Origin: an uncultured bacterium
GTDB lineage: Bacteria; Patescibacteriota; JACMRA01
Direction of reading: 5' to 3'
DNA length: 64,000 nucleotides
NCBI GenBank assembly: GCA_963704645.1
Contig: OY969926.1
Coordinates: 1,202,569 to 1,266,568, forward strand
The position numbers were made by a program, and so were the translations under genes. Below are positions 43,656 to 61,532 of the stretch, in pieces. The notes beneath the pieces are model-generated. The model ran no database searches and was not told the DNA's origin. It was given only the letters and a program-made list of their open reading frames with translations. How positions within the stretch are numbered: the first letter of the stretch is position 1; each line of letters opens with the position of its first letter.

Positions 43656-46600
43656 TTATTTGGAAATGAATGTTTTTTGAAGGAGACCTGAATTTAGGAG
43701 TACTAAATCACTTTGCAGTTTGCTCACGTCTGCTCTCCCTCCATCAATCTCAGCAAAGTCTGTGAAAGCTGAAAAGTTTTGGTCGTAGGTATCTTTCTTG
43801 GAAAGTTGTATTACTGGTTTGTTGTTCTTGCTCACTATTTGGTATCTGTAATTAATACTATTTGGGCCTGAAGTTATTAATCCTATTCTTTCACTGTCGG
43901 CAGAGAAGTTAGGAATATTAGTTATATAAATTGGAAAACCTTTTAACCAATATTCTGTAAGTTCACTAACTCTAGGTGTTTTACCAACTAAGTTTATTCT
44001 ATTGTTTTGTAAATAGGCTAGATATTGAATGTTACTATCTTGAGTGGCATAAATCATTCCATTTACATCTATTGGGTAAACATCATCTATTAGCCTTGTT
44101 CTTGTAAATGTTCCTGCTGCTGTATTGTTTATGGCTAGAAGGCCATTTTGTATTCTTCTATCTCTATACATACTGGTTATACTTTTTACTACACTTCCGT
44201 GGGCTGGGCAAACCGCAGTTGTATCATTTTGCTCTGGAAGGTATACTTGGTAAGCTTCATTTGCTGTGGTTGTAAAGGCATAGCTTCCACAAATTGATCC
44301 ACTTAAATAGCCTCTTCCAACGTAGGCAACTGTTCTTTGAGCCCTGCTTGCAAATGAATTGAATATTCTACCTGTCACATCGTTAGTGGTAAATTGACCT
44401 ATTGGAGCTGTGCTTCTTGGAGGGTCTAGAGCAATTAGCAGTTTAGCTTGGTTGCCAAATTGTGAACTAATTTCAGCAGACATTATTGTTCCCATAGAAT
44501 GGCCCATTAAAAATAGTTTGTCTTTGTTAGTAAATCCCCAATCTGTTAGTTTCTTTTTTATTTGAATAGCAGTTGGTTCAATCCATTTATCTGTATCTGT
44601 TGGGTTTGCAAGACCAGAATTAGCTCCTTGGCTCCAATCTAGGGTAAGTACAATATCTTCAGTTCCATTAACCTCTTTGGTGTTTTGAATTATGGCTGAG
44701 GCTAAATCAGTCATATTATCCCTACTATTATTCATCCCATGACTAACAATCCAAACATTTCTGTTTTGACCTGAAGTTGAATAACTAGCTTTAAGGTTAG
44801 CAGAGTTTCCAGTTATATTAGGATTCTCTATTCGAAGATTGGCTGAGGTATAATTATTGTACCCATCATTCACCGTAAAGTTCTGTTCAATAATATTAGA
44901 GTAACTGTAGGTTATCCACCTACTTCCCCCTGCTACAGTGGTAATGTTACCTGCTTTATCTTTAACAGTAATAGAAAGTTCAATATCTTGGCTTCCTGTA
45001 TTGTATTTAGAAAGTTTGGTTAAATCTAAGTTGGCAGAATACAATGGAATTCCACCTGTGTTGTATGATGTTCCTAAATACTTTAAGGAATTATCGTAGT
45101 AAGCAAAGAAGTCTACACTGGCTATTCCAGATTGAATTGCTCCTTGATCATACGGGTTAGCTGTTACTGTAAAACTATTTCCCACCACACCCATATAGTT
45201 TACTCCTGGTGGAGGATTGGTTATATAACCTGCAGGAGGAGTTTTATCCGTATACTCCCACCGAAGTGCAAAAGCTGCCTGCCCACCATCTTCCCGAAAC
45301 TTAACTTGAAGAAGATACCAACCTTCAGTAAGATATCTGTCTGTTCGAGTTTCAGAACAACACCCAGACTGATTAATTATCCTAGTTCCATCCAATATAA
45401 TTTCAGTTCCGTCATCAGCCTTAGAAATAAAGGTATATGTACTTGCTGGGAAATAATGCATTTTAGTAAAGTAACCAGAGAAGTTATCTGCTGGAAGGGA
45501 GCTTATTCCTGAAGGTGAGTTTAGGTAAGTTCCTGAAAAAGAATTTATTCCTCCTTTAGTTAAGTTTACTGTAGGATTATTATTCCCCCAATTATCATCC
45601 CAAAAGTCCCCTGCTCTAGTTACTGGTTTTACAGGTATACCTGTTTGGAATTTATTTGGGTAGAATTCTACGCACCAGTCTGAAAAGTTATTGTTGGTTT
45701 TACAAGCTAGTTCCCAAGATAAGCTTAGTTTAGCACTTCCTGTTTTTTCTTGGTAATATACTTCCATTATGTGCCAACCTGTTGGTAGATCTATTCTGGT
45801 GTCTGTATCTGCAGCTGGGTTTTCCCATTTATCTAAAATTAGGTTTCCATTAATAACTAATTTCATTCCATCGTCGTAACCTGTATAGAATTTGTAATGA
45901 CCTGAATCAAACCATTGTTTTTTACTAAATTTAGCTGAGAAGTAGTCTGAAGGAGTTATTCCTCCAGGGTTTCCATAACCCCAGTCTTTATTAATGTAAT
46001 CTGTTCTTCCAAGTGAATCTCTAGAAGGATAATAGTTTTCAGAATAAGACATTATTCCAGAATAAGGATTATTGTTGTAATATTGAGCACACCAGTTATC
46101 GTAGGGAAGGGCTGGGTAATTGCATTCATTGTATAAGGGAGTTCCTGTTATGGTAGCTGGTGCGAGCTGAGCTTGGCTCAGCGTCAGTTCCGGCCCGAGA
46201 GGTGTGGCAGTAGTTGTAGGAGAAGTTGTGGGAGACGAGGTAGCTGTGGTTTTTTGAGTAGGAAGTGTAGCGGAAGTAGTAGGTGCCAAAGTAGCGGAGA
46301 CCCCCTGGCCTCCAGAGGCATTGGGTTTTGAGATAGGCGTAGAAGAAGCAATCGGCATCGTAGGGGAGAATCTTGATTCTCCTTGGATGGTAGGGGTATT
46401 AATTACCGGTGTTACAGTGGGAACTTGGGGAAGTGTTGGTGTAGGTATTGTAGGCCTAACAGAATTTTGAGGCTCCGGTCTTTTCCATTCTTCTAGCCTC
46501 TTTTGTTTTTCTTCCTCGGTTATTGGAGTTGGTGTGACAGGTGGTTCTGGATTACTTGGAGGCTCAGGTTCGCCCTCACCTTCACAAATACCCTTCTCTA

Positions 46601-47222
46601 CTTTAAGCACAATATCATTAAAGTCATAGTCTAACCAATCTTCAAAAGAAAGAGAAAATGAATTGTTTCCTAAGTTTACTTGTTTTACTCTACTGGAATC
46701 TGTAGAAAGAATTGTTTTAGGAGATTGCGAGTAAAAGGGAGTTATTTTTAGAATTAGGTCTTGGCCTGAAAGGAAGTTTCCAAGAAGAATAGAATCTGAT
46801 TTTGTAGTAAGGTTATTGTAATTATCTGAAATTAGTTTGTCAGAACCATCTGGATTACCAGCCACTAAATACAATTTACCCCCTGCTCCATCATTACTTA
46901 TTCTTGAAATGTAATAACAGCCTGTGCTTTGGATGGTTAGTTTGTTTGGCGGAGTCTCAGGTGGTTCTTCCTGAGTATCTAAGTCCTCTTGATCTTCTCC
47001 ATTGGAAGAATTAAGTTTAGATTGTCCTGGCTCTTGAGTTTTAGGCCTATCTTTAGCATATTTAATTTTAGCTGGATCATAGTTATTAAAGCTAGTTTTA
47101 GCGTTTGATGATAGTGAAAGTATTGGGTTTAAAAGGGTTAAAATTACTAGAATGAGGGTGATTGGTAAAGAGAGAGGGTTTTTCCAATTGTGTATTAAAG
47201 TCTTTTGTTCTTTGTTTGTCAT
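43656..47222 (-). CDS. Secreted multidomain protein: DUF4114-like, Pro/Thr linker, 2x PA14, Ig-like, alpha/beta-hydrolase (lipase/esterase, GHSMG)
   Basis: 'SFEDWLDYDFNDIVLKV' matches the DUF4114 signature. The two PA14 patterns are 'YFSAKFSKKQWFDSGHYKFYTGYDDGMKLVINGNLILDKW...AKLSLSWE' and 'NFSGYFTKMHYFPASTYTFISKADDGTEIILDG...AAFALRWEY'. 'VWIVSHGMNNS' and 'LFLMGHSMGT' form an oxyanion HG and a GxSxG nucleophile elbow. Confidence 0.75.
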   Translation of the reverse strand: MTNKEQKTLIHNWKNPLSLPITLILVILTLLNPILSLSSNAKTSFNNYDPAKIKYAKDRPKTQEPGQSKLNSSNGEDQEDLDTQEEPPETPPNKLTIQSTGCYYISRISNDGAGGKLYLVAGNPDGSDKLISDNYNNLTTKSDSILLGNFLSGQDLILKITPFYSQSPKTILSTDSSRVKQVNLGNNSFSLSFEDWLDYDFNDIVLKVEKGICEGEGEPEPPSNPEPPVTPTPITEEEKQKRLEEWKRPEPQNSVRPTIPTPTLPQVPTVTPVINTPTIQGESRFSPTMPIASSTPISKPNASGGQGVSATLAPTTSATLPTQKTTATSSPTTSPTTTATPLGPELTLSQAQLAPATITGTPLYNECNYPALPYDNWCAQYYNNNPYSGIMSYSENYYPSRDSLGRTDYINKDWGYGNPGGITPSDYFSAKFSKKQWFDSGHYKFYTGYDDGMKLVINGNLILDKWENPAADTDTRIDLPTGWHIMEVYYQEKTGSAKLSLSWELACKTNNNFSDWCVEFYPNKFQTGIPVKPVTRAGDFWDDNWGNNNPTVNLTKGGINSFSGTYLNSPSGISSLPADNFSGYFTKMHYFPASTYTFISKADDGTEIILDGTRIINQSGCCSETRTDRYLTEGWYLLQVKFREDGGQAAFALRWEYTDKTPPAGYITNPPPGVNYMGVVGNSFTVTANPYDQGAIQSGIASVDFFAYYDNSLKYLGTSYNTGGIPLYSANLDLTKLSKYNTGSQDIELSITVKDKAGNITTVAGGSRWITYSYSNIIEQNFTVNDGYNNYTSANLRIENPNITGNSANLKASYSTSGQNRNVWIVSHGMNNSRDNMTDLASAIIQNTKEVNGTEDIVLTLDWSQGANSGLANPTDTDKWIEPTAIQIKKKLTDWGFTNKDKLFLMGHSMGTIMSAEISSQFGNQAKLLIALDPPRSTAPIGQFTTNDVTGRIFNSFASRAQRTVAYVGRGYLSGSICGSYAFTTTANEAYQVYLPEQNDTTAVCPAHGSVVKSITSMYRDRRIQNGLLAINNTAAGTFTRTRLIDDVYPIDVNGMIYATQDSNIQYLAYLQNNRINLVGKTPRVSELTEYWLKGFPIYITNIPNFSADSERIGLITSGPNSINYRYQIVSKNNKPVIQLSKKDTYDQNFSAFTDFAEIDGGRADVSKLQSDLVLLNSGLLQKTFISK

Positions 47223-47838
47223 AAGTCTTGCACTGAAAATTTGAATGCTTAACTATGCAAATATACTTTATATATGTCAAACTATTTATGTGGTTATTTT
47301 GGAATTAGTTGTTAGTTTTCTAGACAGTGCTTTAATTCTTACCATAAGTATAGCTGTTGAAAGTTAGTAAAGTAGTTTGGTTTATAGCACTAACAACCCT
47401 CCGCACAATTCCCTAATAATATATCTATTCATTTTAAAAATCGGTATTCCCCCCTATTCAAAGCAACCTTAGATTAATTTATTAATTATAATAATAGATA
47501 ATTGATCAATATTTATATTTATTATCTTATAAATTTATAGATAACAATTTTATTATTAAATACTATAGATTATTATTTTGGTAGTTTATTTGTTGGAAAG
47601 TTTTAGTTGGTAGCTTAATTTATTAAACCTTAATATTATTTTTATTTAATACTTGCCCAAATGTTAATTCAAAACAGGACCAATCAAAAGTTCGAAGTGT
47701 GTCCGCAACGGTCTGCCAAAGCCTCACGGCGATTGAGCCAAGTGCTAGTGTTTACACTAAGCATGAGAAAGCTTGAATTTATTTCAAGCGGAAGCGAGGG
47801 GAATTAAACAAAAATACAAACGGTTTTTAATATATAAT

Positions 47839-47865
47839 TGTAGCGGAGGGTTTATCCCTCCATTA
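47839..47865 (+). repeat. GC-rich hairpin element, TGTAG family, copy 4
   Basis: TGTAGCGGAGGGtttatCCCTCCATTA: a 6-bp perfect stem, about 30 nt beyond the 3' end of the HAD gene. Confidence 0.6.
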
Positions 47866-47897
47866 ATAATGGATGAAGTGAGGAAGGAAATAAGGTA

Positions 47898-48587
47898 TTA
47901 CAAATCAAGTAAATCAGCTAATTCAATTAAGTTATTTACCATTGGAAAAATATTACTTTCTTCCTTAGCTTTAAGTAGAACTAAATTGTCTATTCCTGCC
48001 TGTTTTGCTCCTTTAAGGAAGCTAACTTTGTCATCAATAAATAATATTTCTGAGGGCTTGTGTTCCGAGCGATCAATGGCAATTTTATAAATTCTTAAGT
48101 TGGGTTTCTGAACTCCTTCTTCCCACGACAAAATAATATGTTTGAAATATTGATCAATATTATTTAACTTTAATTCAAAATGTCTTCGTGATGGAAGGGC
48201 ATTACTTAAAACACCAAGTTCATATTTTTTGGATAATTTTTCTAAACCTTCTATAACCCCATCTTTTATTCTAAAATCTGCCTTAATACGATATTCGCTT
48301 AGTTTAGTTATTAATTCTTCTGTGTAAGAAATTCCTGAATAATCACACATTCTTCTGTGAAATCTATTAATAATTCTATACTCATCATCAAGTGTTTTAA
48401 TATAGTTAAATTCGTCTGCTTCCTCTTTTTGCAAAGCCACAACTTCCATAACTATTTTGTCATAATTTTCAGGGTTAAATCCTAATTCCCTTGCAATGTT
48501 ATCTCCGTCTTTTGTTCTTCTTTCAAATAATACATCCCCAGCGTCTAGGTAAATAAATTTGGGTTGTTTGATTGTTGGGGTGGGCAT
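47898..48587 (-). CDS. HAD-superfamily hydrolase (YihX-like motif I variant)
   Basis: Motif I is 'FIYLDAGDVLF' (compare E. coli YihX FDLGNVIV). Motif II is 'GVLSNA'. Motif IV is 'ILFIDDKVSFLKGAKQAGI'. Confidence 0.75.
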   Translation of the reverse strand: MPTPTIKQPKFIYLDAGDVLFERRTKDGDNIARELGFNPENYDKIVMEVVALQKEEADEFNYIKTLDDEYRIINRFHRRMCDYSGISYTEELITKLSEYRIKADFRIKDGVIEGLEKLSKKYELGVLSNALPSRRHFELKLNNIDQYFKHIILSWEEGVQKPNLRIYKIAIDRSEHKPSEILFIDDKVSFLKGAKQAGIDNLVLLKAKEESNIFPMVNNLIELADLLDL

Positions 48588-48622
48588 GGTTTGGTGGTGT
48601 TAACCTCTTCATTTAAAGAATT

Positions 48623-51600
48623 TTAATGTTGAGTTTTTTTCCCAAAAGCATCAACTAATTTTATAATTTCATTATTATTCTTTTGTTTTTCACAGAGCCC
48701 CTCAAGGCTATCTTTAATTGTACTTGTTTCTAATTGTTTTTTATCTAATTTATTTATTAAATACTCAAAAGATGAAATTATTGGTTTCATACTATAACTA
48801 TCAGTCAACATAAAGAATTCATTTTTACAAAGCATACCAAGTAGATTTTCAAGTATGTTGTCAGTTTCTAAAGAATTTAGTCTTATTAAATTATCAAAGA
48901 AACTTTCATTCCCATATATCCTTATAAAATATTGATAAGGAGTATTTAAAACTTTTTCTAAAATTTCCTCACCCCAAAAATTATAAAACCTTTCAACCTC
49001 TTCTATATTTTGAGCTTTCTCAAGAGTGTCAAAAAACTTGTTAAAACTTGCTGTAGTTACAGTTTTTGCTTCTTGTCCTACAACTTGTAGGTTTTCTCTA
49101 AAGTATGAATTCTGCCATTCCAAGAGTAAACTAAAGTTATTTTTTAGTCGCTGTTTAGCTTTTACAGGATTAGGAATATTGGGCCGATCTAAAGTTTCAT
49201 TTCTTTCAATCTCATACCTGTATCCCTCTGCGTGAGATGCAAAAATATGGAGTAATTTTGATTTCAATACAATACTTTTATCCAAGTAGTCCGAATAAAT
49301 TGTTTCAAAAATACCATAATAAACATTCAAGTGGTTAATTATTTCAAGCGAAATGTTTTCTTTCTCTATTTTTTCATATTTAAACAGTTGTTTTACCAAT
49401 TCTACAAGATTTGTTTTATACAAGGGATTATATGCCATGCTCTTAGCACGGTTAAAAATAGACAAGGTCAATTCCGCCCTACCGTCAGATAATATATTGC
49501 TTTCGTTTAGAGTTTTACTAATAATATTATAAACTAAACCATCTTTAGCCCACATTTCATCTGTTATTCCATTGTACATAAAGCAATATAAAATTGCACT
49601 GCATCCAAGGTAGTCTTTCTTGCTAAATTCTTGAAGCATTATATTACCTATTTCTGTTTGAAAATCAGGCACTTTTTGATAAATCTTCAAACCCAACAAT
49701 ATCCAAATTAAACCTATATTAGTGTTAATAAGCAGTGATATTAGCTCATATCCACTGTTATTTTCTCTGTTACTTGTCCATCTTTTTTGATCATGCTGAG
49801 GGTCATTATAGTTACTTACAAGTTTGATTAACATGTTTTTTAATACAATCAATTGCCCCCCTCTAACACCGTCATTTCCAAGTAATTTTTCCCAGTAATT
49901 AACAACTCTTGCTACTAAGTCCTTTTTAAAATATTGTTTTTCTACAAGATTTATTGAGAATTGAAATTTTCTTTCGTCATCTAAATTAGACTGTACTATT
50001 CCATAAACAAGGTTGTATATCCATCTAAATATAATAACAGAATTATTTTGCCCTTCCTGAATACAAAGTGGTGGTTTTGAAAGCCAAATATCACAAATGT
50101 CTAGTAATTGTATTGCTAAATCTGGCTTTTCCTTAGCCATATTTTCTAACATTATTGGTACTGCTCTTTCTTCAGATTCAAATCCATATATTTTTAAACC
50201 ATTTATCAAGCAATCATATAATTTATCTTGCCACTCATCTAAACTAAAACCTAAATAATTTTCCCATTTACTGCCACCATTTTTTATTAGCTCTTCAATT
50301 TCATTTGTTTGCACAAAGTGACCTCCTTTATTCATTTTGTAACCTATCCAGTCACGAGACCATTCGTGTTCAATAGAATAATCTTCTAATTTGTTTTTTT
50401 CTTTTTGCCAATCTGAATAAGCTTTTAAAAATAGTTTCAATGTCTTTAGTTGCTCCCATTTTTGATCATGATAAGTTTTAAAAACAGTAAAATATACACC
50501 CTCTCGCTTATATATTTTTTCAGAAAGTAATTTTTCTATAAAAATATCTCTTTCTATTTGTGGTAAATTCAATATATACTGCTTTAAAAGGGTAAACCAT
50601 CTATATCGACCTTCTTGTTTTGTGATATCCTGTTTTATATCACTTTCGTTAAAACCAAAAGTAAAATTATCTTCTTTATATCCATTCAGAACAACATTTT
50701 TACTTTTAATAACCTTCAGATTTCTGTTAGGCTCAAAATTATCTAAAAATAAATCAGAAGAAAAATCATAATCTCTTAAAAATCCTAACAATACAATTTC
50801 TAACCACAAATCATTTTCAATATAAGTTGTTGGAATACTTTGTGAAAGAATTTTATATATATTATCACCAATATGTTCTAAATCATATTTTTCGCCTCTC
50901 CAACTCGACATTAAATCAGTATTTACATACTCTGCTTTCATCGGCTTGCCTTTAAGCAAAGCCTTAATAAAGGAAAGAACATTTTTTCTACTACTTTTAA
51001 TGTATTGTTCAGATTGATTAGCTTTAACCAAAAAGTCTGACGCAGTTACTTTTACATAACTATCTGATTCAGCTAGTTTAACTATTGTTTTTTGTAAATT
51101 ATCTGGTAGACCCTCAAAGTTTTGTTGAATTGCTAGAATGCAGCTATTCTTTAGAGGATTATAGGTAGTTTTATTGATTAAATCAGTAACAAATTGTTCA
51201 ACTTCTCTTTTTTGATCTTCTGTAGCTATAAGATAAAACTCTTTAAGCCAATTTAAAAATGCAAATTTCGCATTTATCCAGTCAATACCTCGTTGATTAT
51301 AATAGTTAGTTTCAGGGTCTAGTGTTTCTTGTTTTAAATCAAATCTTGTGACTATGTCTTTGATAAATTTAAACCAAAAAGGAGAATGCTCATTGATTAT
51401 AGAAGTCAGTACGCGGAATGTTTCATTTAAATCAATTGAACTAGCTTCACTTATAATTTGTTTGGTAAATTTTATTTGATTTTCTTCTGCAAGTATTTCA
51501 ATTAGCCTAGTAGAAATTTGTATTTTATCTATTTTTTTTTCTATTTTCTTAAAAGCCTCATAAAGACCTTTAATTGAAGATTCTACAGCTTGTTTTTTCA

Positions 51601-52267
51601 GTATATTTTCTTCCGTATTTTGAATTTTTTGCCTATTTATTTCTACTAATTTTATTACATTTGGATCGCTATACGATTCATAAGCAGCTTTAACTTGTGG
51701 AAAAATTATGTTATAAAAACTTTGCCTATCATTAGTTATTTTATTCCTTGAATTGAAGTAAATAGTGTACTCTAAATCTTCAAATTTTTTCTGTTTTCCC
51801 TTCCTCTCCCATTCTGCTTTTTCTTCATTAAAAATTTTTAGCCAATCCTCCCTACTTTTCCACTCATAAAAAATAACAAATTTTTCTTTATCACCATTTA
51901 CCCAGTACGCCACTATAAAAATAAAACCTTCCGTATAAGAAGCATATAGAGGTAAATGCCATAAAGGTACTGGTTTACTTGAACTAAATTTTTCATCATT
52001 GTTGTTCCACAACCAATTATCAATTTTATCACCAGTAATATTTGCATCATTTTTCCCCTTAACTTGACACATGAGACGATAACTGGCTTTTGAATTATCC
52101 GAATTACCATGATCAACTATTTGAATATAACCATCGTCCGCCAAGCCTTTATCAGTTTTATTTAATTGAAGCTTAAACAATTGCCCCTGTGAATATGGAT
52201 CGCAAAGAATATTTTCCACCATATTAACAGCTATTAATTCAATATTAGATGAATCTGATTGTGACAT
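48623..52267 (-). CDS. Large (1,214 aa) cytoplasmic protein: DUF4365-like (PD-(D/E)xK nuclease-like) N-terminal domain plus ~1,050-aa all-helical repeat region
   Basis: The N-terminal 'ELIAVNMVENIL....ADDGYIQIVD......YRLMCQVKGK' fits the DUF4365 pattern (E.iA...v..l ... D.GiDg.ie ... vQVKat). The rest is rich in helical heptad/HEAT-like segments. No P-loop (GxxxxGK[ST]) and no signal peptide was seen. Confidence 0.6.
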   Translation of the reverse strand: MSQSDSSNIELIAVNMVENILCDPYSQGQLFKLQLNKTDKGLADDGYIQIVDHGNSDNSKASYRLMCQVKGKNDANITGDKIDNWLWNNNDEKFSSSKPVPLWHLPLYASYTEGFIFIVAYWVNGDKEKFVIFYEWKSREDWLKIFNEEKAEWERKGKQKKFEDLEYTIYFNSRNKITNDRQSFYNIIFPQVKAAYESYSDPNVIKLVEINRQKIQNTEENILKKQAVESSIKGLYEAFKKIEKKIDKIQISTRLIEILAEENQIKFTKQIISEASSIDLNETFRVLTSIINEHSPFWFKFIKDIVTRFDLKQETLDPETNYYNQRGIDWINAKFAFLNWLKEFYLIATEDQKREVEQFVTDLINKTTYNPLKNSCILAIQQNFEGLPDNLQKTIVKLAESDSYVKVTASDFLVKANQSEQYIKSSRKNVLSFIKALLKGKPMKAEYVNTDLMSSWRGEKYDLEHIGDNIYKILSQSIPTTYIENDLWLEIVLLGFLRDYDFSSDLFLDNFEPNRNLKVIKSKNVVLNGYKEDNFTFGFNESDIKQDITKQEGRYRWFTLLKQYILNLPQIERDIFIEKLLSEKIYKREGVYFTVFKTYHDQKWEQLKTLKLFLKAYSDWQKEKNKLEDYSIEHEWSRDWIGYKMNKGGHFVQTNEIEELIKNGGSKWENYLGFSLDEWQDKLYDCLINGLKIYGFESEERAVPIMLENMAKEKPDLAIQLLDICDIWLSKPPLCIQEGQNNSVIIFRWIYNLVYGIVQSNLDDERKFQFSINLVEKQYFKKDLVARVVNYWEKLLGNDGVRGGQLIVLKNMLIKLVSNYNDPQHDQKRWTSNRENNSGYELISLLINTNIGLIWILLGLKIYQKVPDFQTEIGNIMLQEFSKKDYLGCSAILYCFMYNGITDEMWAKDGLVYNIISKTLNESNILSDGRAELTLSIFNRAKSMAYNPLYKTNLVELVKQLFKYEKIEKENISLEIINHLNVYYGIFETIYSDYLDKSIVLKSKLLHIFASHAEGYRYEIERNETLDRPNIPNPVKAKQRLKNNFSLLLEWQNSYFRENLQVVGQEAKTVTTASFNKFFDTLEKAQNIEEVERFYNFWGEEILEKVLNTPYQYFIRIYGNESFFDNLIRLNSLETDNILENLLGMLCKNEFFMLTDSYSMKPIISSFEYLINKLDKKQLETSTIKDSLEGLCEKQKNNNEIIKLVDAFGKKTQH

Positions 52268-52535
52268 AAATAAATTTTAATTTTAACTCTTACAAATTTT
52301 TCTAGCTTCGCTAATTAAAGTACTCCGAATTATAGGCACAATACATAATATTTCATCTAGCATAATTTGAATAAATGAAGTGTCTTATACCGCCAGTTGT
52401 CAATCAAATTCATTCCTTCTTTTAACTTTAAAAAGTCCTGACTTCAATACATCCTTTTTTTGAATGAATCTGGATATTCAGCAATAAAATTAGCAATCTC
52501 AGTATTTTTTCATAGTAATCTAATTTAACAGTAAT

Positions 52536-53174
52536 TTACTCAATCTTCCTAATACTTTCCAAACTACCAACCACCTCCACCACCCCAAAACTCCGCAAAG
52601 CCCTTCCGCCCAAACCTTCAAACACTTTACACACCCTAGCCGAGTCATCAACTAAAACACAGTTTGATATTTCCACACCCAAGCTTTCCGCTTTATCTAT
52701 AAAATACTGACCATTATTGGTAGTTTTAAAAATTCCTAAATTGTACGAATTTTCTATTTCATCAAAGCTTTCCATTAAAATTAAATTACTTGGTAAAGTA
52801 AATCTATCAAAACTATCCATGTTTCCAGTTGCTAGAATACAATAGTAATCTTTTCTTAATTCCTGAATTTTTTCTAAGACAGAAGTTGATATATCAATGT
52901 TTCTACAACCTCTTTCAAAAATTTCAAATAGCTCTGAAAATGGTACTCCAACTGCATTATTTAGAATTTCATGAATTTCTTCACTGGTGTATTTTCCAAG
53001 CATCCAGTCTTTTATAATTTCTGGCTTTTCTTTAAACAAAAAGTTCTCTATTGGTTGATGATAAGTATTTAGTGGATGAGCTTTATCTTCGAGATCTTTC
53101 CAAAAATTATCATAAGAAATTACTCCGTTAAAGTCTACAAATAGAATTGGCTTAATAATTTTATTGCTGTTCAT
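52536..53174 (-). CDS. HAD-like hydrolase (212 aa)
   Basis: Motif I-like 'ILFVDFNGVISY', then 'ILATGNMD', then motif IV-like 'CVLVDDSARV'. The internal ATG at 53174 (MNSNKII) is preferred over the listed 53201. Confidence 0.55.
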   Translation of the reverse strand: MNSNKIIKPILFVDFNGVISYDNFWKDLEDKAHPLNTYHQPIENFLFKEKPEIIKDWMLGKYTSEEIHEILNNAVGVPFSELFEIFERGCRNIDISTSVLEKIQELRKDYYCILATGNMDSFDRFTLPSNLILMESFDEIENSYNLGIFKTTNNGQYFIDKAESLGVEISNCVLVDDSARVCKVFEGLGGRALRSFGVVEVVGSLESIRKIE

Positions 53175-53224
53175 AACAAATACAAAATGTGCAGCAAGCA
53201 AGCATCTTTATGATATTTATAAAC

Positions 53225-53743
53225 CTAATTATCTTGAAGTGTTTTTAATAAAGCAAAATAGGCTGGTTTTGGTTTATAGTTTCGGTTGAATATATTAGGG
53301 TGGTAGTTTTCCATTTTACCTGGTACATTATCACCGTACCATATATGATTATCAGAAATATTCCAAACTGAAAAACCAGTACAGTTACTAGAAAGCATGC
53401 AGGAAAGCAAATAATTACTATAGGTATTAGCTTGCTTTTTTAGCTGCTCCTCTTTAGGCGAAGAAAGTTTATCTTCATAAAGAAGAACATCCATTTCTAT
53501 AATTCTAACCTTTAAACCTAGTTTTTGATATGCCTGAATAGTTTTATACATTGGGTAATTTTGAATATTATCTTTATTAAAAGCTTCTTTATCAAGCATT
53601 TTATTATTTGTAATATGAGACTGAATTCCTACTCTGTCTATGGGAACACCAGCCTTTAGTAAATTAGAGGCCATATAATACATATTTTTAGACTTTATAC
53701 TTCTGCTTTTATTTAGATTTGGCGAATTATACAAAAATAGCAC
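53225..53743 (-). pseudogene. Glycoside hydrolase family 10 (xylanase-like) C-terminal half only; N-terminal half missing
   Basis: 'GVPIDRVGIQSH', 'VRIIEMDV' (nucleophile region, compare ITELD), 'TGFSVWNISDNHIWY' and 'IFNRNYKPKPAYFAL' match the second half of GH10. The acid/base (..NE) half is missing. Only ~90 nt separate this ORF from the next gene. Confidence 0.55.
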
Positions 53744-53836: not shown

Positions 53837-56314
53837 ATGGAAAACTTAAAAAATAATAAAGTTCTGTTTATAAACAACATAAAAAAGCTTTTTAGAAATA
53901 AGGTGTTTTTAGTTTGTTTACTGATTGCACTGGTTGTTGGTAGCGTTTCTAGTGCATTGTATTTTGATAGAGAAAAAAAGGTTGCTAGGGCTAAAGATTC
54001 AATTTGTGCGTCCGCTGGGCAGACATTGGTATTAAAAATTACTTACACTATTCCTGCAAATACTGATACACAAACTAGCTATCTTGATCCAGGTGGTACG
54101 CCTGACCTTGTATCTGGTACAAATACTAATGTCGAACATTATTATTATTATGACTACGATCCCGTAAATGATGATCTTAAAAGAACCGGTACAAATTCTA
54201 CAGTGTTAAGCGGTCCTGCAGGTCCTTATTTTGGAGCTCATATTTATACGCTAAATGGAGGTGAGCCCGTAATTGGTCGACCTGGTAATCCGGATAAAGA
54301 ATTCTATATATACAATATTTCATTTACAAATCAACTTTTTGAAACATCTGGTCCTAATGATCTTACATCGAATATGAGGCTAATGCAACCATATGTAAGT
54401 ATGGGCTATTATAATCGCTCGCCAGACCCCAACAATCCTGGCCAGTTTATTACAGACCCCCAGCCTGTTTCAGTACCTGTTGTTCCAGATGTAGCCTTAA
54501 TATCATGCATTTCTGGAGACGCAGACAGTGATACCATTGCAGACACAATTGACAACTGCCCTGATGATCCTAATACTAACCAGCTAGACTCAGATAACGA
54601 TAGTGTTGGTAATGAATGTGACAACTGCCCTGCTGACCCCAACCCAGATCAAGCGGATACAGATAATGATGGAGTTGGTGATGCATGTGCTACTAATAAT
54701 AGTTCAAACCGCATCCTAGACTGCCGCCTACCCCCTGCAGGCAATCCTAGTTCAACCAATTATGATGAATGGACAAAAGTAGCACCAATCATAGTTCCAA
54801 ACTACGCTAGGCTTAATAGAGATATTTTTGGTCTCACAATGGACAGTGCTTCTAACTTGTATGTTTTAAATGCTCCTTCTAGAAGTTTGTATGGAGGTGG
54901 TGTAAGTGGTGTATCTACTCAAGATGCTTTGTATTCTTCTCCTATGAGTATGACTAAACTTACTCCTTCTACATCTAACAAGAATGTTCCTGGATCTGTA
55001 AGTGTTATTGACATCCCAGGTCTTAATGGAAGACCAATGGATTTGGATATGAAGTCTTTTAAAGGTACTGATGATAATATTTATGTTTATGGGTTGTATA
55101 AAGTTAATTCTAACCCCTTAGTTGGATCAAGCGATGTAGCTGGAGACGTAGCTGGTTTTATTGCTGTAGTTAATAAAGATACAGGAGCTAATACTTTACT
55201 AAGTAGTGATATTCCTGCAGGAGGATTTGAAAAAGCTTTTGCTGACATTGCTGTTAATAACCAAGGCCAAGTATTCTTCGATGATGTAAGAAGTGCTACC
55301 ACTCCAACTAATGTATACAGTTACCAACCAAGATTACAAGCTTCTGGTACTGTAGATGTAACTTTTATGGATTACGCAGATAATACTTTCTTCGATGTAG
55401 CTGCGGATAATAGTGGTAATGTGTATTCTTTGTTTACTGGTCAAAGTGATGTGTATAAAAATGCAACTCGTTTAAATCTAACCCTTCCTGCTAACGGCGA
55501 CGGAGGAGATATTGAAATTGCTGATGCAGATAATACATACAATACAAGCTTAACTGGAGATAATTACATTTACTATACTGCTGGAGATGGAAGCGGCAGT
55601 GGCCCAGCTTTAGTTAGAGTATCTCAGGGTGGCACACCAGAGCCAATAACTAGTAACAGTGACCCAGTAGATTCAAACTTCATAGCTTCTAATGTAGGAA
55701 GAATGGATAAAGTAATTTTAGATTTAGATAATCAAGTAATTTATTACAAAAATGGAAGTAGAACCGCTAATAACCCAGATCAGACTATTGGTAAGATTTA
55801 TTGCCCAGATCCAGCAAATCCAAACGAACCAAGACCTCCATTTGTACCACCAACCACAACTCCAGGTGGTGACCCGGATCAAATTATCTTTCTTGGAGGA
55901 GGTACTGGTGGAACTGGAAGTACAGGAACTACTACTGGAACAACAACGGGGACTACTACAACTGGAACGACCACGACTGGAAGTACAACTGGAGGAACAA
56001 CTGGTACTCCTAACCTAACCCTAGTTAAAACAAGTAGTGGTACTGGTAGTATTTTAAACCAAGGTCAGACTATTACTTATACTTTAACTGTTGGGAATAG
56101 TGGTGATGCAGCTTCATTACCTTTTATAGTAAATGACAATCTACCCTTAAATGTTACCTTCTCTGGCATAGGAACTTGTACTGCATCTTTCCCTGCTGGA
56201 ATTACTGTTTCTACTTGTAGTTATGATAGTGTAAATAGAAGGCTTACTTGGAATATTAGTAGTTTACCTGCTGGTAGTGGTGGTAATATTAGTTTTGCTG
56301 TGGTAGTGAATTAG
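53837..56314 (+). CDS. Secreted TSP3-repeat / propeller-like / Thr-Gly linker / DUF11 protein, family member 1 (825 aa)
   Basis: It has an N-terminal signal-anchor. The thrombospondin type-3 Ca-binding repeats read '[57 protein letters not shown]'. The C-terminal DUF11-like domain reads '[30 protein letters not shown]...L.W.ISSLPAG..G.ISFAVVV'. Confidence 0.8.
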   Translation: MENLKNNKVLFINNIKKLFRNKVFLVCLLIALVVGSVSSALYFDREKKVARAKDSICASAGQTLVLKITYTIPANTDTQTSYLDPGGTPDLVSGTNTNVEHYYYYDYDPVNDDLKRTGTNSTVLSGPAGPYFGAHIYTLNGGEPVIGRPGNPDKEFYIYNISFTNQLFETSGPNDLTSNMRLMQPYVSMGYYNRSPDPNNPGQFITDPQPVSVPVVPDVALISCISGDADSDTIADTIDNCPDDPNTNQLDSDNDSVGNECDNCPADPNPDQADTDNDGVGDACATNNSSNRILDCRLPPAGNPSSTNYDEWTKVAPIIVPNYARLNRDIFGLTMDSASNLYVLNAPSRSLYGGGVSGVSTQDALYSSPMSMTKLTPSTSNKNVPGSVSVIDIPGLNGRPMDLDMKSFKGTDDNIYVYGLYKVNSNPLVGSSDVAGDVAGFIAVVNKDTGANTLLSSDIPAGGFEKAFADIAVNNQGQVFFDDVRSATTPTNVYSYQPRLQASGTVDVTFMDYADNTFFDVAADNSGNVYSLFTGQSDVYKNATRLNLTLPANGDGGDIEIADADNTYNTSLTGDNYIYYTAGDGSGSGPALVRVSQGGTPEPITSNSDPVDSNFIASNVGRMDKVILDLDNQVIYYKNGSRTANNPDQTIGKIYCPDPANPNEPRPPFVPPTTTPGGDPDQIIFLGGGTGGTGSTGTTTGTTTGTTTTGTTTTGSTTGGTTGTPNLTLVKTSSGTGSILNQGQTITYTLTVGNSGDAASLPFIVNDNLPLNVTFSGIGTCTASFPAGITVSTCSYDSVNRRLTWNISSLPAGSGGNISFAVVVN

Positions 56315-56392: not shown

Positions 56393-56438
56393 GGTATAAA
56401 ATATCATTAAATTAGTGATTGAAAACAAAAACAAAAGT

Positions 56439-59120: not shown

Positions 59121-61532
59121 ATGGAAAACTTAAAAAAGAATAAAGTTCTATTTATTAATAGTATTAAGAAACTTTTTAGAAATAAGGTGTTTTTAGTAAT
59201 ACTACTAGTTGCAGTTGCAATAGCTTCTTTATCTGCATTATATGTAGTTCAAAATAATAATAGTCCTAAAGTTGCAAGAGCAGCCGATGACCCACTTTGT
59301 TTAGAAAAATCATTAAGCCAAGGATATTACGTTAAAGTAACATTTGGCGGTATAATACCTAGAGATAGCTCTATCTCTAGTGCGTATACAGAAAGAGTAT
59401 TTTCATCATTTACCTTTGGCAGTCCCATTTATATAGGTGAGGAGTCGTTTCTATATGGATATCCATTAAGCACACCTGTAAACGTAACAGTTGTAAGTGC
59501 AGGAACAACTGATTTTTTTACTGAGGGAAGAACTCCAAATAATATAACAACCCTTGTTAATAGAATTCAGCTCGGCGTACCAGAAAGCTATTATGAATTA
59601 AAATCTGCACAATACTACTACGAAAAGCTCCCAGACCCTCAATATCCCAACGCTTTTCCTGGAATTTCAATAACCAACCCTGATGCACCTATTAACATTC
59701 CACACACCGTAACAGCTGGGCTTATAAGCTGCGGAGTCACAGACCCAGACTCCGACGGTGATGGAGTGGCAGACGGTACAGACAACTGCCCAAACATATC
59801 TAATACCAATCAGCTTGATGGTGATAATGATGGTGACGGCGATGCATGTGACAACTGTCCAAACACACCAAACCCAGATCAATTAGACACAGATAATGAC
59901 GGCGTTGGAGACGCATGTTATACAAACCGCATCCTAGACTGCCGCCTACCCCCTGCAGGCAATCCTAGTTCAACCAATTATGATGAATGGACAAAAGTAG
60001 CACCAATCATAGTTCCAAACTACGCTAGGCTTAATAGAGATATTTTTGGTCTCACAATGGACAGTGCTTCTAACTTGTATGTTTTAAATGCTCCTTCTAG
60101 AAGTTTGTATGGAGGTGGTGTAAGTGGTGTATCTACTCAAGATGCTTTGTATTCTTCTCCTATGAGTATGACTAAACTTACTCCTTCTACATCTAACAAG
60201 AATGTTCCTGGATCTGTAAGTGTTATTGACATCCCAGGTCTTAATGGAAGACCAATGGATTTGGATATGAAGTCTTTTAAAGGTACTGATGATAATATTT
60301 ATGTTTATGGGTTGTATAAAGTTAATTCTAACCCCTTAGTTGGATCAAGCGATGTAGCTGGAGACGTAGCTGGTTTTATTGCTGTAGTTAATAAAGATAC
60401 AGGAGCTAATACTTTACTAAGTAGTGATATTCCTGCAGGAGGATTTGAAAAAGCTTTTGCTGACATTGCTGTTAATAACCAAGGCCAAGTATTCTTCGAT
60501 GATGTAAGAAGTGCTACCACTCCAACTAATGTATACAGTTACCAACCAAGATTACAAGCTTCTGGTACTGTAGATGTAACTTTTATGGATTACGCAGATA
60601 ATACTTTCTTCGATGTAGCTGCGGATAATAGTGGTAATGTGTATTCTTTGTTTACTGGTCAAAGTGATGTGTATAAAAATGCAACTCGTTTAAATCTAAC
60701 CCTTCCTGCTAACGGCGACGGAGGAGATATTGAAATTGCTGATGCAGATAATACATACAATACAAGCTTAACTGGAGATAATTACATTTACTATACTGCT
60801 GGAGATGGAAGCGGCAGTGGCCCAGCTTTAGTTAGAGTATCTCAGGGTGGCACACCAGAGCCAATAACTAGTAACAGTGACCCAGTAGATTCAAACTTCA
60901 TAGCTTCTAATGTAGGAAGAATGGATAAAGTAATTTTAGATTTAGATAATCAAGTAATTTATTACAAAAATGGAAGTAGAACCGCTAATAACCCAGATCA
61001 GACTATTGGTAAGATTTATTGCCCAGATCCAGCAAATCCAAACGAACCAAGACCTCCATTTGTACCACCAACCACAACTCCAGGTGGTGACCCGGATCAA
61101 ATTATCTTTCTTGGAGGAGGTACTGGTGGAACTGGAAGTACAGGAACTACTACTGGAACAACAACGGGGACTACTACAACTGGAACGACCACGACTGGAA
61201 GTACAACTGGAGGAACAACTGGTACTCCTAACCTAACCCTAGTTAAAACAAGTAGTGGTACTGGTAGTATTTTAAACCAAGGTCAGACTATTACTTATAC
61301 TTTAACTGTTGGGAATAGTGGTGATGCAGCTTCATTACCTTTTATAGTAAATGACAATCTACCCTTAAATGTTACCTTCTCTGGCATAGGAACTTGTACT
61401 GCATCTTTCCCTGCTGGAATTACTGTTTCTACTTGTAGTTATGATAGTGTAAATAGAAGGCTTACTTGGAATATTAGTAGTTTACCTGCTGGTAGTGGTG
61501 GTAATATTAGTTTTGCTGTGGTAGTGAATTAG
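59121..61532 (+). CDS. Secreted TSP3-repeat / DUF11 protein, family member 3 (803 aa)
   Basis: The N-terminal ~265 aa are unique. The TSP3 repeats read '[59 protein letters not shown]'. From '[10 protein letters not shown]' to the stop it is identical to member 1. Confidence 0.8.

What the first reader, a model, noticed from the sequence alone, without database searches (positions are those of the whole stretch)
47898..53201. 1,214-aa DUF4365-like nuclease-domain protein with giant helical-repeat body, flanked by two HAD-like hydrolases: candidate defence or surveillance locus
The N-terminus ('ELIAVNMVENIL...ADDGYIQIVD...YRLMCQVKGK') fits the DUF4365 / PD-(D/E)xK restriction-endonuclease-like pattern, which recurs as an effector or sensor head in anti-phage proteins. 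It is fused to ~1,050 aa of helical repeats with no P-loop, no TM helix and no other catalytic motif that I can see.

A HAD hydrolase follows 35 nt downstream and is probably co-transcribed. Another HAD-like gene precedes the large gene, and a decayed GH10 gene borders the locus. The whole block looks extremely AT-rich by eye. A nuclease head plus a huge repeat scaffold plus phosphatases is not a named system to my knowledge. The defence role is inference.
Basis: inference. Interest (0 to 1): 0.65.

Follow-up and report, generated by a model that had tools for sequence, protein, structure and literature searches.

The report
Rare nuclease-headed helical giant protein
This is an intact 1,214-residue protein from an almost unsampled family (four sequences among about 15 billion) that joins a small nuclease-like head to a huge all-helical body; it looks horizontally acquired and shuffled like bacterial immune genes, but its defence role is unproven and this copy has lost one key catalytic residue.

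Summary
The ORFs are real: a 1,214-aa gene (48623-52267, minus strand), a HAD hydrolase 35 nt downstream, a weak HAD-like gene upstream and a truncated GH10 gene. The large protein matches no Pfam, NCBIfam, PADLOC, PHROG or PDB entry. An exhaustive search of 1.84 billion representatives found only three relatives.

Two relatives' heads hit DUF4365 (the DREN nuclease of SPARDA) below threshold and carry its D..D..QxK signature. The window's head is homologous to them (E=8e-9), but the second Asp, the likely metal ligand, is Gln49.

The body is an all-alpha HEAT-like solenoid with no P-loop.

Against its closest relative, the body is about 94% identical and the head 24%, with saturated synonymous divergence, so the head was swapped by recombination.

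The gene is more AT-rich than its surroundings in all four contexts. One truncated copy lies in a plasmid defence island; the window copy does not.

The downstream HAD is linked only in the near-identical module. The upstream HAD is unlinked.

Best reading (about 0.45): a horizontally mobile single-protein conflict or defence factor built like DSR2, with an effector head on an alpha-solenoid sensor. This allele may be nuclease-impaired.

The parts
48623..52267 (-). Large ORF, 1,214 aa, intact. It belongs to an unannotated family with only 4 known sequences.
   Evidence: ORF; no family, defence-model or PDB hit; only P0002, P0003 and P0004 found anywhere; all are singleton clusters without names.
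51773..52267 (-). Head domain, residues 1-165: a DUF4365-like (PD-(D/E)xK-type) domain in a divergent allele.
   Evidence: BLASTP to the P0002 head gives E=8e-9, collinear. The P0002 and P0004 heads hit PF14280 at E=0.0036 and 0.0028, with 17.8 and 18.2 bits against a cutoff of 24.3. The predicted secondary-structure order is H-E-E-E-H-E, but model confidence is low, pLDDT 40.
52121..52135 (-). Codons D45-G46-Y47-I48-Q49. These align with D-G-x-x-D of the relatives and with DxGxD of DUF4365. The second Asp is replaced by Gln.
   Evidence: Reference residues: NbaSPARDA DREN D41/Q60/K62 (PMC12205087) and EAT16 D42/D46/Q66/K68 (PMC11297309).
52058..52066 (-). Codons Q68-V69-K70, the QxK motif of DUF4365, 19 residues after Q49.
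   Evidence: The motif is invariant in all three heads.
51419..52252 (-). Swapped cassette (codons ~6-283: head plus helical linker). It has no DNA similarity to the L001 allele, although both flanks are conserved.
   Evidence: blastn. Contig lay-down: 965 nt of the window are replaced by 925 unrelated nt. dS is 1.5 (saturated) against 0.15 in the body.
48623..51418 (-). Body, residues 284-1214: an all-alpha HEAT/ARM-like solenoid, about 94% identical to P0002 and under purifying selection.
   Evidence: AlphaFold model with pLDDT 60, all helices. Foldseek PDB hits are CAND1, karyopherins, RRP12 and FANCI at E=3e-5 to 1e-3, TM about 0.2. dN/dS is 0.21.
49688..49744 (-). Residues 842-860, LISLLINTNIGLIWILLGL. 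This is the most conserved family motif and the only strongly hydrophobic stretch.
   Evidence: Invariant columns L842, S844, L846, I847, N848, N850, W855 and L858. Kyte-Doolittle score 2.05. It lies in the best-modelled part of the solenoid.
49109..49177 (-). Residues 1031-1053, IPNPVKAKQRLKNNFSLLLEWQN. This motif is conserved in all four proteins but lies in a poorly modelled region.
   Evidence: Invariant P1032, N1033, P1034, K1038, R1040, L1041, L1048, W1051, Q1052 and N1053. Low pLDDT in the model at residues 846-909.
52253..52410 (-). Conserved upstream region (80% identical to L001) with a promoter-like site (ATGAAA-16-TATAAT, 52356-52329). This is probably the gene's own promoter.
47898..48587 (-). 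Downstream HAD-IA-type hydrolase, 229 aa, 35 nt after the large gene. Motif I is non-canonical (D14-A-G-D-V, with no Asp at +2). Motifs II-IV are present.
   Evidence: Pfam HAD_2 at 9e-16. NCBIfam hits are all below equivalog cutoffs. Motifs. dN/dS 0.10 and dS 0.59 against L001.
47771..47789 (-). Terminator-like hairpin about 110 nt after the HAD stop codon. This is the probable end of the two-gene transcription unit.
52536..53201 (-). Upstream HAD-like ORF (221 aa). It is a neighbour, not part of the conserved module.
   Evidence: Weak PF00702 and TIGR02247 hits. Absent from L001, L003 and L005. Only 22% identical to the downstream HAD.
53225..53743 (-). Truncated GH10 gene (C-terminal half only). 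It is a neighbour.
   Evidence: PF00331 at 1e-29, profile positions 168-310 of 311.

Best explanation
The large gene most likely encodes a horizontally mobile, single-protein conflict (anti-phage or anti-plasmid) factor of a previously undescribed family.

Shown:
- An N-terminal domain of about 165 aa is related to the DUF4365/DREN PD-(D/E)xK nucleases.
- A helical linker joins it to an all-alpha HEAT-like solenoid of about 930 aa, with no NTPase.
- The head plus linker is an exchangeable cassette, replaced by recombination at the head/body junction.
- The gene is compositionally foreign wherever it occurs.

Inferred mechanism, by analogy with DSR2 (SIR2 head plus alpha-solenoid sensor, tetramer) and with SPARDA (DREN is active only when oligomerised): the solenoid binds an invader-derived ligand, the protein oligomerises, and the heads come together into an active non-specific nuclease.

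In the window's allele the Asp equivalent to the catalytic metal ligand is Gln49. This copy may therefore be nuclease-impaired, or it may use the head for binding or assembly rather than cleavage.

The downstream HAD hydrolase is co-transcribed in this lineage, but it is an accessory, not a defining partner.
For: 1. The head is DUF4365-like. The P0002 and P0004 heads each give DUF4365 as their only Pfam hit (E=0.0036 and 0.0028). Both carry D-G-x-x-D...Q-x-K with a spacing of 19-20, as in EAT16 (D42/D46/Q66/K68, PMC11297309) and NbaDREN (D41/Q60/K62, PMC12205087). The full signature occurs in 0.2-0.3% of shuffled heads. The window head is homologous to P0002's (E=8e-9).
2. Every experimentally characterised DUF4365 domain that I found in the papers is a toxic effector nuclease in a conflict system: SPARDA (PMC10810196, PMC12205087), the eCIS toxin EAT16 (PMC11297309) and the Divona defence cassette (bioRxiv 10.1101/2024.07.02.601686).
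3. The body is an alpha-solenoid. DSR2 has the same head-plus-solenoid logic (PMC11850899).
4. Horizontal-transfer signatures. The gene is 28.6% GC against 37-39% in the flanking genes; P0004 is 39.9% against 54.2%; P0003 is 26.4% against 31.4%. Only the gene and its HAD are shared between the window and L001. The family has 4 members among about 15 billion proteins, in hosts of very different GC content.
5. Mosaic recombination. Head dS is saturated, body dS is 0.07-0.26 and HAD dS is 0.59.
6. P0003 lies on a plasmid or ICE (TrwC, ParA, Tn3) between PDC-S02 plus an AriA/OLD-like ATPase and PDC-M16A plus a TPR protein.
7. P0004 is a lone low-GC insertion between folB and a Clp-type ATPase, which fits a self-sufficient single gene.
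Against: - There is no PADLOC or PHROG hit for any family member.
- The window's neighbours are surface proteins and hydrolases, not defence genes.
- The DUF4365 hits are below Pfam's gathering score, and the window head has none.
- The head's fold could not be verified: the model has pLDDT 40 and the Foldseek result is noise.
- Gln49 replaces the Asp whose Ala mutant abolishes DREN activity.
- The defence-island association rests on a single, IS-truncated copy.
- Generic HEAT solenoids occur in many non-immune proteins.
- There are no expression or phenotype data.
Confidence: 0.45

Rival explanations
1. It is a cellular, non-immune scaffold protein. A HEAT-like solenoid with a degenerate, non-catalytic nuclease-fold domain would act in DNA or protein handling, for example as a DNA-binding or assembly platform, in a small-genome freshwater bacterium. 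In this reading the defence-like features are coincidental.
For: - The window head lacks the second signature Asp.
- Fold hits include DNA-associated solenoids such as FANCI/FANCD2, Rif1, condensin Ycg1 and Scc2.
- The neighbourhood is chromosomal, with no defence genes.
- The body is under purifying selection (dN/dS 0.21).
Against: - The distribution is extremely patchy: 4 sequences among about 15 billion, in hosts ranging from 31% to 54% GC.
- The gene has foreign composition in every context.
- One copy is plasmid-borne and was allowed to be truncated by an IS element.
- The head has been swapped as a cassette.
- A housekeeping scaffold would be expected to be conserved across a clade.
Confidence: 0.2
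2. It is a two-gene system in which the HAD hydrolase is the functional effector or partner, for example by dephosphorylating nucleotides or a signalling molecule, while the large protein acts as sensor or regulator.
For: - The spacer is 35 nt, with one promoter-like site upstream and one terminator-like hairpin downstream.
- The pair stays adjacent in L001 although all other neighbours differ.
- The HAD is under strong purifying selection (dN/dS 0.10), including the 45 N-terminal codons in L001.
Against: - There is no HAD next to P0004 or P0003.
- The L001 HAD has lost its ATG through a 2-nt deletion.
- HAD motif I lacks the Asp+2 general acid/base.
- HAD dS (0.59) differs fourfold from the body's (0.15), so the two genes have had partly separate histories.
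Confidence: 0.12
3. It is an offensive effector or toxin: cargo of a secretion or injection system, or a predation factor that delivers a DUF4365-type nuclease into other cells. The swapped head would reflect toxin diversification.
For: - DUF4365 is the toxic domain of the eCIS effector EAT16 (PMC11297309).
- The nearest genome by TopA (89% identity) is a MAG labelled Bdellovibrionales, a predatory lineage.
- The head is the variable module.
Against: - There is no signal peptide or TM segment, no eCIS, T6SS or other secretion genes among the neighbouring genes scanned, and no adjacent immunity-like small ORF.
- Polymorphic toxins usually vary at the C-terminus, and here the N-terminus varies.
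- The window allele lacks a catalytic Asp.
Confidence: 0.1
4. It is a decaying selfish or foreign remnant with no current function in this genome.
For: - The locus is bordered by a truncated GH10 gene and by intergenic remnants of genes that are present in L001.
- The head has lost a signature Asp.
- P0003 is a truncated copy.
Against: - A 3.6-kb ORF is fully intact in a 29% GC background, where stop codons arise easily.
- The body's dN/dS is 0.21 and the HAD's is 0.10.
- Near-identical body fragments are present in metagenomes from three studies.
Confidence: 0.08

Closest known systems
DUF4365 (PF14280) / DREN effector nuclease of SPARDA (short pAgo + DREN-APAZ)
   Same: It has a small N-terminal PD-(D/E)xK-type domain carrying a D..D...QxK signature at the same spacing. 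DREN is inactive as a monomer and is switched on by oligomerisation, which offers a plausible logic for a head tethered to a large scaffold.
   Different: There is no APAZ domain and no Argonaute partner. Pfam scores are below threshold, and absent for the window copy. Gly sits one position earlier (DGxxD rather than DxGxD). The window allele has Gln in place of the second Asp.
DSR2 / DSR1 (defence-associated sirtuins)
   Same: It is a single polypeptide of about 1,000-1,200 aa with an N-terminal enzymatic effector, then a middle region, then a large alpha-solenoid that in DSR2 senses a phage protein. There is no NTPase.
   Different: The head is nuclease-like, not SIR2. There is no sequence or PADLOC match to the DSR models. 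DSR2 was not among the top 50 fold hits. Ligand sensing and tetramerisation are untested here.
EAT16 (eCIS-associated toxin with N-terminal DUF4365)
   Same: It has an N-terminal DUF4365-type domain whose signature residues are required for toxicity.
   Different: EAT16 is a small two-domain toxin encoded next to an eCIS. Here there is no injection system, and a 1,000-aa solenoid is attached.
Divona (integron-cassette defence protein: DUF4365 + RecB/Mrr-like + crr6)
   Same: It is a single-gene candidate defence protein with an N-terminal DUF4365.
   Different: The C-terminal part is different: there is no crr6 hit and no second nuclease domain, and the protein is much larger.
Avs / bacterial NLR-like STAND proteins with nuclease heads
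   Same: It has an N-terminal effector (often Mrr/PD-(D/E)xK) followed by a long helical-repeat sensor.
   Different: There is no STAND/P-loop NTPase module: no Walker A motif and no AAA or NACHT hit.

Membership tests
DUF4365 (PF14280) domain family | Match to the Pfam HMM at or above the gathering score (24.3 bits). | tested here: not met
   The window protein and its isolated head give no hit even at E<=10. The relatives' heads score 17.8 and 18.2 bits (E=0.0036 and 0.0028), below the cutoff.
DUF4365 (PF14280) domain family | Conserved signature DxGxD...QxK (PMC11297309). The catalytic residues are D, Q and K (PMC12205087, PMC10810196). | tested here: inconclusive
   P0002 has D52-G-x-x-D56...Q76-x-K78 and P0004 has D58-G-x-x-D62...Q81-x-K83. 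All four residues are present, with Gly shifted by one. The window has D45-G-x-x-Q49...Q68-x-K70, so the second Asp is missing.
DUF4365 (PF14280) domain family | [quoted passage not shown] | tested here: inconclusive
   The AlphaFold head model has pLDDT 40. Its secondary-structure order (H-E-E-E-H-E...) is compatible, but the Foldseek result is noise (best E=0.23, TM<0.3).
SPARDA (short pAgo system) | An APAZ domain fused to the nuclease, with an adjacent short Argonaute (MID-PIWI) gene. | tested here: not met
   The large protein and its neighbours have no APAZ or Piwi hits in Pfam. The neighbours are HAD, GH10, PA14 and TSP3 proteins. There is no PADLOC hit.
DSR1/DSR2 | An N-terminal SIR2 NADase domain. 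| tested here: not met
   No SIR2 hit in Pfam or PADLOC.
DSR1/DSR2 | A large C-terminal alpha-solenoid sensor domain. | tested here: met
   The model is all-alpha and its best fold matches are HEAT/ARM solenoids. This is a fold-class resemblance only, not homology.
Avs / STAND NLR-like defence proteins | A central STAND P-loop NTPase (Walker A and B). | tested here: not met
   There is no G-x4-GK[ST] motif, and no AAA, NACHT or STAND family hit.
Any catalogued defence system (PADLOC-DB 2.0) | A significant match to a PADLOC protein model. | tested here: not met
   There are 0 hits for the window protein, P0002 and P0003. P0004 gives only a weak PDC-M02A hit (E=0.0054) over the motif region.
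HAD superfamily (downstream gene 47898-48587) | A Pfam HAD match above the cutoff, plus motifs I-IV (nucleophile Asp, Ser/Thr, Lys, DD). | tested here: met
   HAD_2 scores 58.9 bits against a cutoff of 23.8. Motif I is YLDAGDVL, motif II is VLSN and motif IV is FIDD. The Asp+2 of canonical DxDx[TV] phosphatases is Gly. No NCBIfam equivalog cutoff is reached, so the substrate is unknown.
Defence island residency (guilt by association) | Family members recurrently lie next to known defence genes. | tested here: inconclusive
   Yes for P0003 (PDC-S02, AriA-like, PDC-M16A and a TPR protein). No for the window, for P0004 (folB and a Clp ATPase) or visibly for L001. With four loci, no statistics are possible.

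The most novel reading that the evidence does not exclude
This is a new single-gene immune family. A conserved alpha-solenoid sensor of about 930 aa carries an exchangeable DUF4365-type head cassette, which recombination swaps at the head/body junction. Some alleles, such as the window's Q49 form, would have a catalytically altered head that acts as a regulator or decoy, or through a different chemistry. In this lineage a HAD hydrolase has been recruited as an accessory.
Probability: 0.3. Interest if true: 0.65.

Novelty: new variant of a known kind. Interest (0 to 1): 0.45.

Why it matters
If this is a defence protein, it would add an NTPase-free design of nuclease head plus alpha-solenoid sensor to the small group of single-polypeptide sensors exemplified by DSR2. 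It would also extend the known uses of the DUF4365/DREN nuclease beyond Argonaute systems.

The natural pair of alleles is useful in itself. They share a roughly 94%-identical body but have 24%-identical heads, one with and one without the second signature Asp. That gives a ready-made experiment on which module senses and which one kills.

The locus also shows how rare such families can be: four sequences among about 15 billion proteins, all unnamed.

Tried and rejected
- **Word-index homologue searches.** Searches with the full protein, the family alignment and the head alignment found only self and P0002, or nothing.
- **Locus scans.** Genome, metagenome (twice) and viral contig scans with the family or head profiles found no further loci.
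- **PDB sequence searches.** Searches with the protein, the head profile, the P0004 head and the body profile gave nothing meaningful.
- **Head structure.** The model has pLDDT 40 and its Foldseek result is noise, so no structural test of the catalytic site was possible.
- **Body against viral structures.** Nothing below E=0.01.
- **NCBIfam on the heads.** Nothing.
- **Getting a genuine DUF4365 sequence for a profile-profile comparison.** All routes failed. tblastn of the P0004 head against plasmids gave only chance hits, one inside a UvrD-like helicase and one in no coherent ORF. The SPARDA paper supplements hold no protein sequences. The Arcobacter plasmid MK715471 is not in the collection. 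The E. coli accessions come without coordinates.
- **Ideas rejected.**
  - A local cassette array or paralogues for head switching: none in the window.
  - Sequence-level internal repeats: none.
  - The two HADs as recent duplicates: 22% identity, E=0.018.
  - The PADLOC 'RTasDUF1848' hit of the HAD (E=1e-4) was treated as spurious, because it is weak and partial and the HAD models fit far better.

Full report
**1. The observation**

The ORF list confirms these features, all on the minus strand:
- A 1,214-aa ORF at 48623-52267.
- A 229-aa ORF at 47898-48587, starting 35 nt after the large gene's stop.
- A 221-aa ORF at 52536-53201, 268 nt upstream.
- A 172-aa ORF at 53225-53743.

Pfam assigns them as follows:
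- The downstream gene is a solid HAD (HAD_2, 58.9 bits, cutoff 23.8).
- The upstream gene is only a weak HAD (PF00702, E=0.0066).
- The last ORF is the C-terminal half of a GH10 enzyme (profile positions 168-310 of 311).

The large protein has no hit above noise in Pfam, NCBIfam, PADLOC, PHROGs or PDB sequences. In particular it has no DUF4365 hit, even when the head is scanned alone at E<=10. It has no Walker A, HNH, GxSxG or CxxC motif.

GC content is 28.6% for the gene, 34.6% for the window and 37-39% for the flanking surface-protein genes. The 24-44 kb stretch is also about 30%, so 'extremely AT-rich' is overstated.

**2. How rare the family is**

An exhaustive HMMER scan of 1.84 billion cluster representatives found three relatives:
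- P0002: 1,197 aa, 81% identical.
- P0004: 1,178 aa, 26% identical over residues 172-1175.
- P0003: 601 aa, 32% identical, aligned to residues 629-1197 only.

All are singleton clusters with no name from any source. Profile searches and scans of the genome, metagenome and viral contig collections added nothing.

**3. The head**

Pairwise comparisons of the heads:
- P0002 against P0004: clearly homologous (E=5e-30, 30% identity).
- Window against P0002: homologous and collinear over about 270 residues (E=8e-9, 24% identity).
- Window against P0004: barely detectable (E=0.88).

Scanned alone, the P0002 and P0004 heads each give DUF4365 as their only Pfam hit. The values are E=0.0036 (17.8 bits) and E=0.0028 (18.2 bits, covering profile positions 2-125 of 139), both below the 24.3-bit cutoff.

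The literature gives a concrete signature:
- DUF4365 has the motif DxGxD...QxK. In the eCIS toxin EAT16 these residues are D42, D46, Q66 and K68 and are needed for toxicity (PMC11297309).
- In NbaSPARDA the DUF4365 (DREN) catalytic residues are D41 on strand 2, and Q60 and K62 on strand 3. D41A and Q60A abolish activity (PMC12205087).
- In TmuRE the active-site residues are Q62 and K64 (PMC10810196).

The positions in this family are:

| Protein | First Asp | Second position | QxK | Spacing, second position to Gln |
|---|---|---|---|---|
| P0002 | D52 | D56 | Q76, K78 | 20 |
| P0004 | D58 | D62 | Q81, K83 | 19 |
| Window | D45 | Q49 | Q68, K70 | 19 |

The full signature appears in only 0.2-0.3% of shuffled heads. 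The window keeps the first Asp and the QxK, but the second Asp, which is the residue equivalent to the metal ligand D41, is Gln.

The AlphaFold model of the window head was too poor to use (pLDDT 40), and its Foldseek result is noise. Only the predicted order of helices and strands (H-E-E-E-H-E) agrees with the PD-(D/E)xK topology.

My judgement is that the family's head is probably a DUF4365-type domain (about 0.75). This is not demonstrated, and the window allele is atypical at a catalytic position.

**4. The body**

The model of residues 166-1214 is entirely helical, with about 55 helices, mean pLDDT 60 and 407 residues at 70 or above.

Foldseek against the PDB returns only generic HEAT/ARM solenoids: CAND1, karyopherins, RRP12, FANCI/FANCD2, Rif1 and condensin Ycg1. 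E-values run from 3e-5 to 1e-3 with TM-scores of about 0.15-0.23. This indicates a fold class, not homology.

Nothing was found in the viral structure library or by profile search against PDB sequences. There are no detectable internal sequence repeats.

The best-conserved motifs across the four proteins are LINTNxGxxW (residues 846-855), DGR (928-930), IPNPxKAKxRL (1031-1041) and WQN (1051-1053).

**5. Mosaic evolution**

blastn of L001 against the window shows three different patterns:
- The body plus the HAD gene is 93% identical over 3,516 nt.
- The upstream 159 nt, including the first five codons, is 80% identical.
- The roughly 830 nt that encode residues 6-283 have no similarity at all.

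Laying the metagenome contigs on the window gives the same picture: 965 nt of the window are replaced by 925 unrelated nt.

Nei-Gojobori estimates:

| Segment | dS | dN | dN/dS |
|---|---|---|---|
| Head plus linker | 1.5 (saturated) | 0.83 | not meaningful |
| Body | 0.15 (0.07-0.26 by block) | 0.032 | 0.21 |
| HAD | 0.59 | 0.058 | 0.10 |

The head difference is therefore an old allele brought in by recombination at the head/body junction, not recent divergence in place. The body and the HAD also have partly separate histories.

Low-depth fragments of the body at 96-99% identity occur in freshwater metagenomes from two further studies.

**6. Genomic contexts**

- **Window.** The setting is chromosomal: rpsF/rpsR, topA, murG and thioredoxin/DsbD genes. 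The immediate neighbours are PA14/lipase-like and TSP3/DUF11 surface proteins. None of the neighbours scanned, including the adjacent genes, has a convincing PADLOC hit. TopA is 89% identical to that of a Lake Mendota MAG labelled 'Bdellovibrionales bacterium'.
- **L001 (P0002).** The same gene-plus-HAD pair is present, but every other neighbour differs (Laminin_G_3, abhydrolase, His_Phos_1, three CYTH genes).
- **L003 (P0004).** The gene is 39.9% GC in a 54.2% GC contig. It lies between folB and a Clp-type AAA+ gene, with no HAD.
- **L005-L009 (P0003).** The 601-aa ORF begins 13 nt after an IS transposase gene, and its missing N-terminal half is nowhere else on the contig, so it is a 5'-truncated copy. 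The 55-60 kb contig carries a TrwC relaxase, ParA, Tn3 and a resolvase. PADLOC identifies PDC-S02 (7e-99) and an AriA/OLD/GajA-like ATPase (9e-22) upstream. It also identifies PDC-M16A (8e-85) and a TPR/cold-shock-like protein (1.5e-46) directly downstream. This is a defence island on a mobile element.

**7. The HAD genes**

The downstream HAD has:
- Motif I YLDAGDVL, with the nucleophile D14 but Gly at +2 instead of the usual Asp.
- Motif II VLSN.
- Motif IV FIDD.

Its best NCBIfam hits (YjjG-like, CTE7, REG-2-like) are all far below the equivalog cutoffs, so its substrate is unknown.

A promoter-like site lies in the conserved upstream region, and a terminator-like hairpin lies about 110 nt after the HAD. 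This is consistent with a two-gene transcript, but that is an inference.

In L001 a 2-nt deletion removes the HAD's ATG and puts the ORF in frame with the large gene behind a single TAA. Even so, its first 45 codons show 7 synonymous and 0 non-synonymous changes.

The upstream HAD-like gene is absent from all other loci, lies outside the conserved upstream region, and is only 22% identical to the downstream HAD. It is a neighbour and not a component.

**8. Interpretation**

Shown:
- An intact gene under purifying selection, from an extremely rare and compositionally foreign family.
- A DUF4365-like head, a helical linker and an NTPase-free alpha-solenoid.
- A head cassette swapped by recombination.
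- One relative in a defence island.

Inferred: the protein is a single-protein conflict or defence factor. The solenoid would sense an invader component and drive oligomerisation, and oligomerisation would activate the head nuclease. Two analogies support this. DREN is active only as a tetramer assembled on a filament (PMC12205087). DSR2 combines an N-terminal effector with an alpha-solenoid sensor (PMC11850899, PMC11263360).

The window allele's Gln49 argues that this particular copy is impaired or repurposed.

Confidences:
- Best explanation: about 0.45.
- Rival, non-immune scaffold: 0.20.
- Rival, HAD-centred two-gene system: 0.12.
- Rival, offensive toxin: 0.10.
- Rival, decaying remnant: 0.08.

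**9. Comparison and novelty**

This is not a member of SPARDA (no APAZ or Argonaute), DSR (no SIR2), Avs (no NTPase) or any PADLOC model. Formal DUF4365 membership is not met for the window protein.

It resembles DSR2 in design and DREN in its head. I rate it a new variant of a known kind, an effector head on a helical sensor, with moderate interest (0.45). The function is inferred from only four sequences, and the copy in hand is atypical at its active site.

Noticed in passing
L001:13284-13460 (compare window 48560-48625): In the relative's locus a 2-nt deletion removes the HAD start codon. This leaves the HAD ORF in the same frame as the large gene, separated by a single TAA. The 45 codons upstream of the next Met carry only synonymous changes (7 against 0). 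Possible explanations are a non-canonical start, reinitiation or stop-codon read-through.
   Followed up: partly
window 47223-47897 (fragments at 47680-47719 and 47804-47860): The 675-nt gap after the HAD contains two short stretches that are 95% identical to L001. In L001 they are separated from the HAD and from each other by about 1 kb (an abhydrolase gene) and about 4.9 kb (His_Phos_1, a 388-aa gene and a CYTH gene). The window therefore appears to carry deletions or gene remnants. In the L001-type contig an 18-nt hairpin (GCAAGCACATCTTGCTTT) replaces 84 nt of the window.
   Followed up: partly
L005:895-3672 and L005:11509-15651: The plasmid or ICE contig that carries the truncated relative holds candidate defence systems: PDC-S02 (a DUF1016 nuclease), an AriA/OLD-like ATPase, PDC-M16A (981 aa), and a 397-aa TPR/cold-shock-like protein. 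They are interspersed with Tn3 and an IS element.
   Followed up: partly
window 2601-3191 (-): A single 196-aa ORF matches ribosomal protein S6 (residues 4-96) and S18 (residues 140-188), an apparent rpsF-rpsR fusion.
   Followed up: no
window 3467-21157 (-): A giant 5,896-aa ORF occupies 17.7 kb of the window. It was not analysed.
   Followed up: no
window 53837-56314, 56415-58970, 59121-61532 (+): Three tandem paralogous surface proteins of about 800-850 aa. The first and third, which were scanned, have thrombospondin type-3 repeats, Thr/Gly-rich linkers and C-terminal DUF11-type domains. The C-terminal sequences of the first two are nearly identical (those of the third were not read).
   Followed up: no
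window 43656-47222 (-): A 1,188-aa secreted-looking protein with a PA14 domain and, by eye, a C-terminal lipase-like GHSMG motif. It lies directly downstream of the module on the same strand.
   Followed up: no
window 26096-28777 (+): Overlapping genes encode a 237-aa protein, a 429-aa Pol-beta-type nucleotidyltransferase and an Exo_endo_phos family protein. The first two give weak PADLOC PDC-S09 hits (E=9e-5 and 7e-4).
   Followed up: no
L001:15309-21186: Near the relative's module lie three CYTH-domain genes and a 661-aa protein that combines a weak Pol-beta nucleotidyltransferase hit with a histidine-phosphatase domain. This is an unusual cluster of nucleotide or phosphate-handling genes.
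   Followed up: no
window 52536-53201 (-): The upstream HAD-like ORF was called from a TTG, but it more plausibly starts at Met10. Its motif I is FVDFNGV (Asn at +2), which is non-canonical, as in the downstream HAD.
   Followed up: partly
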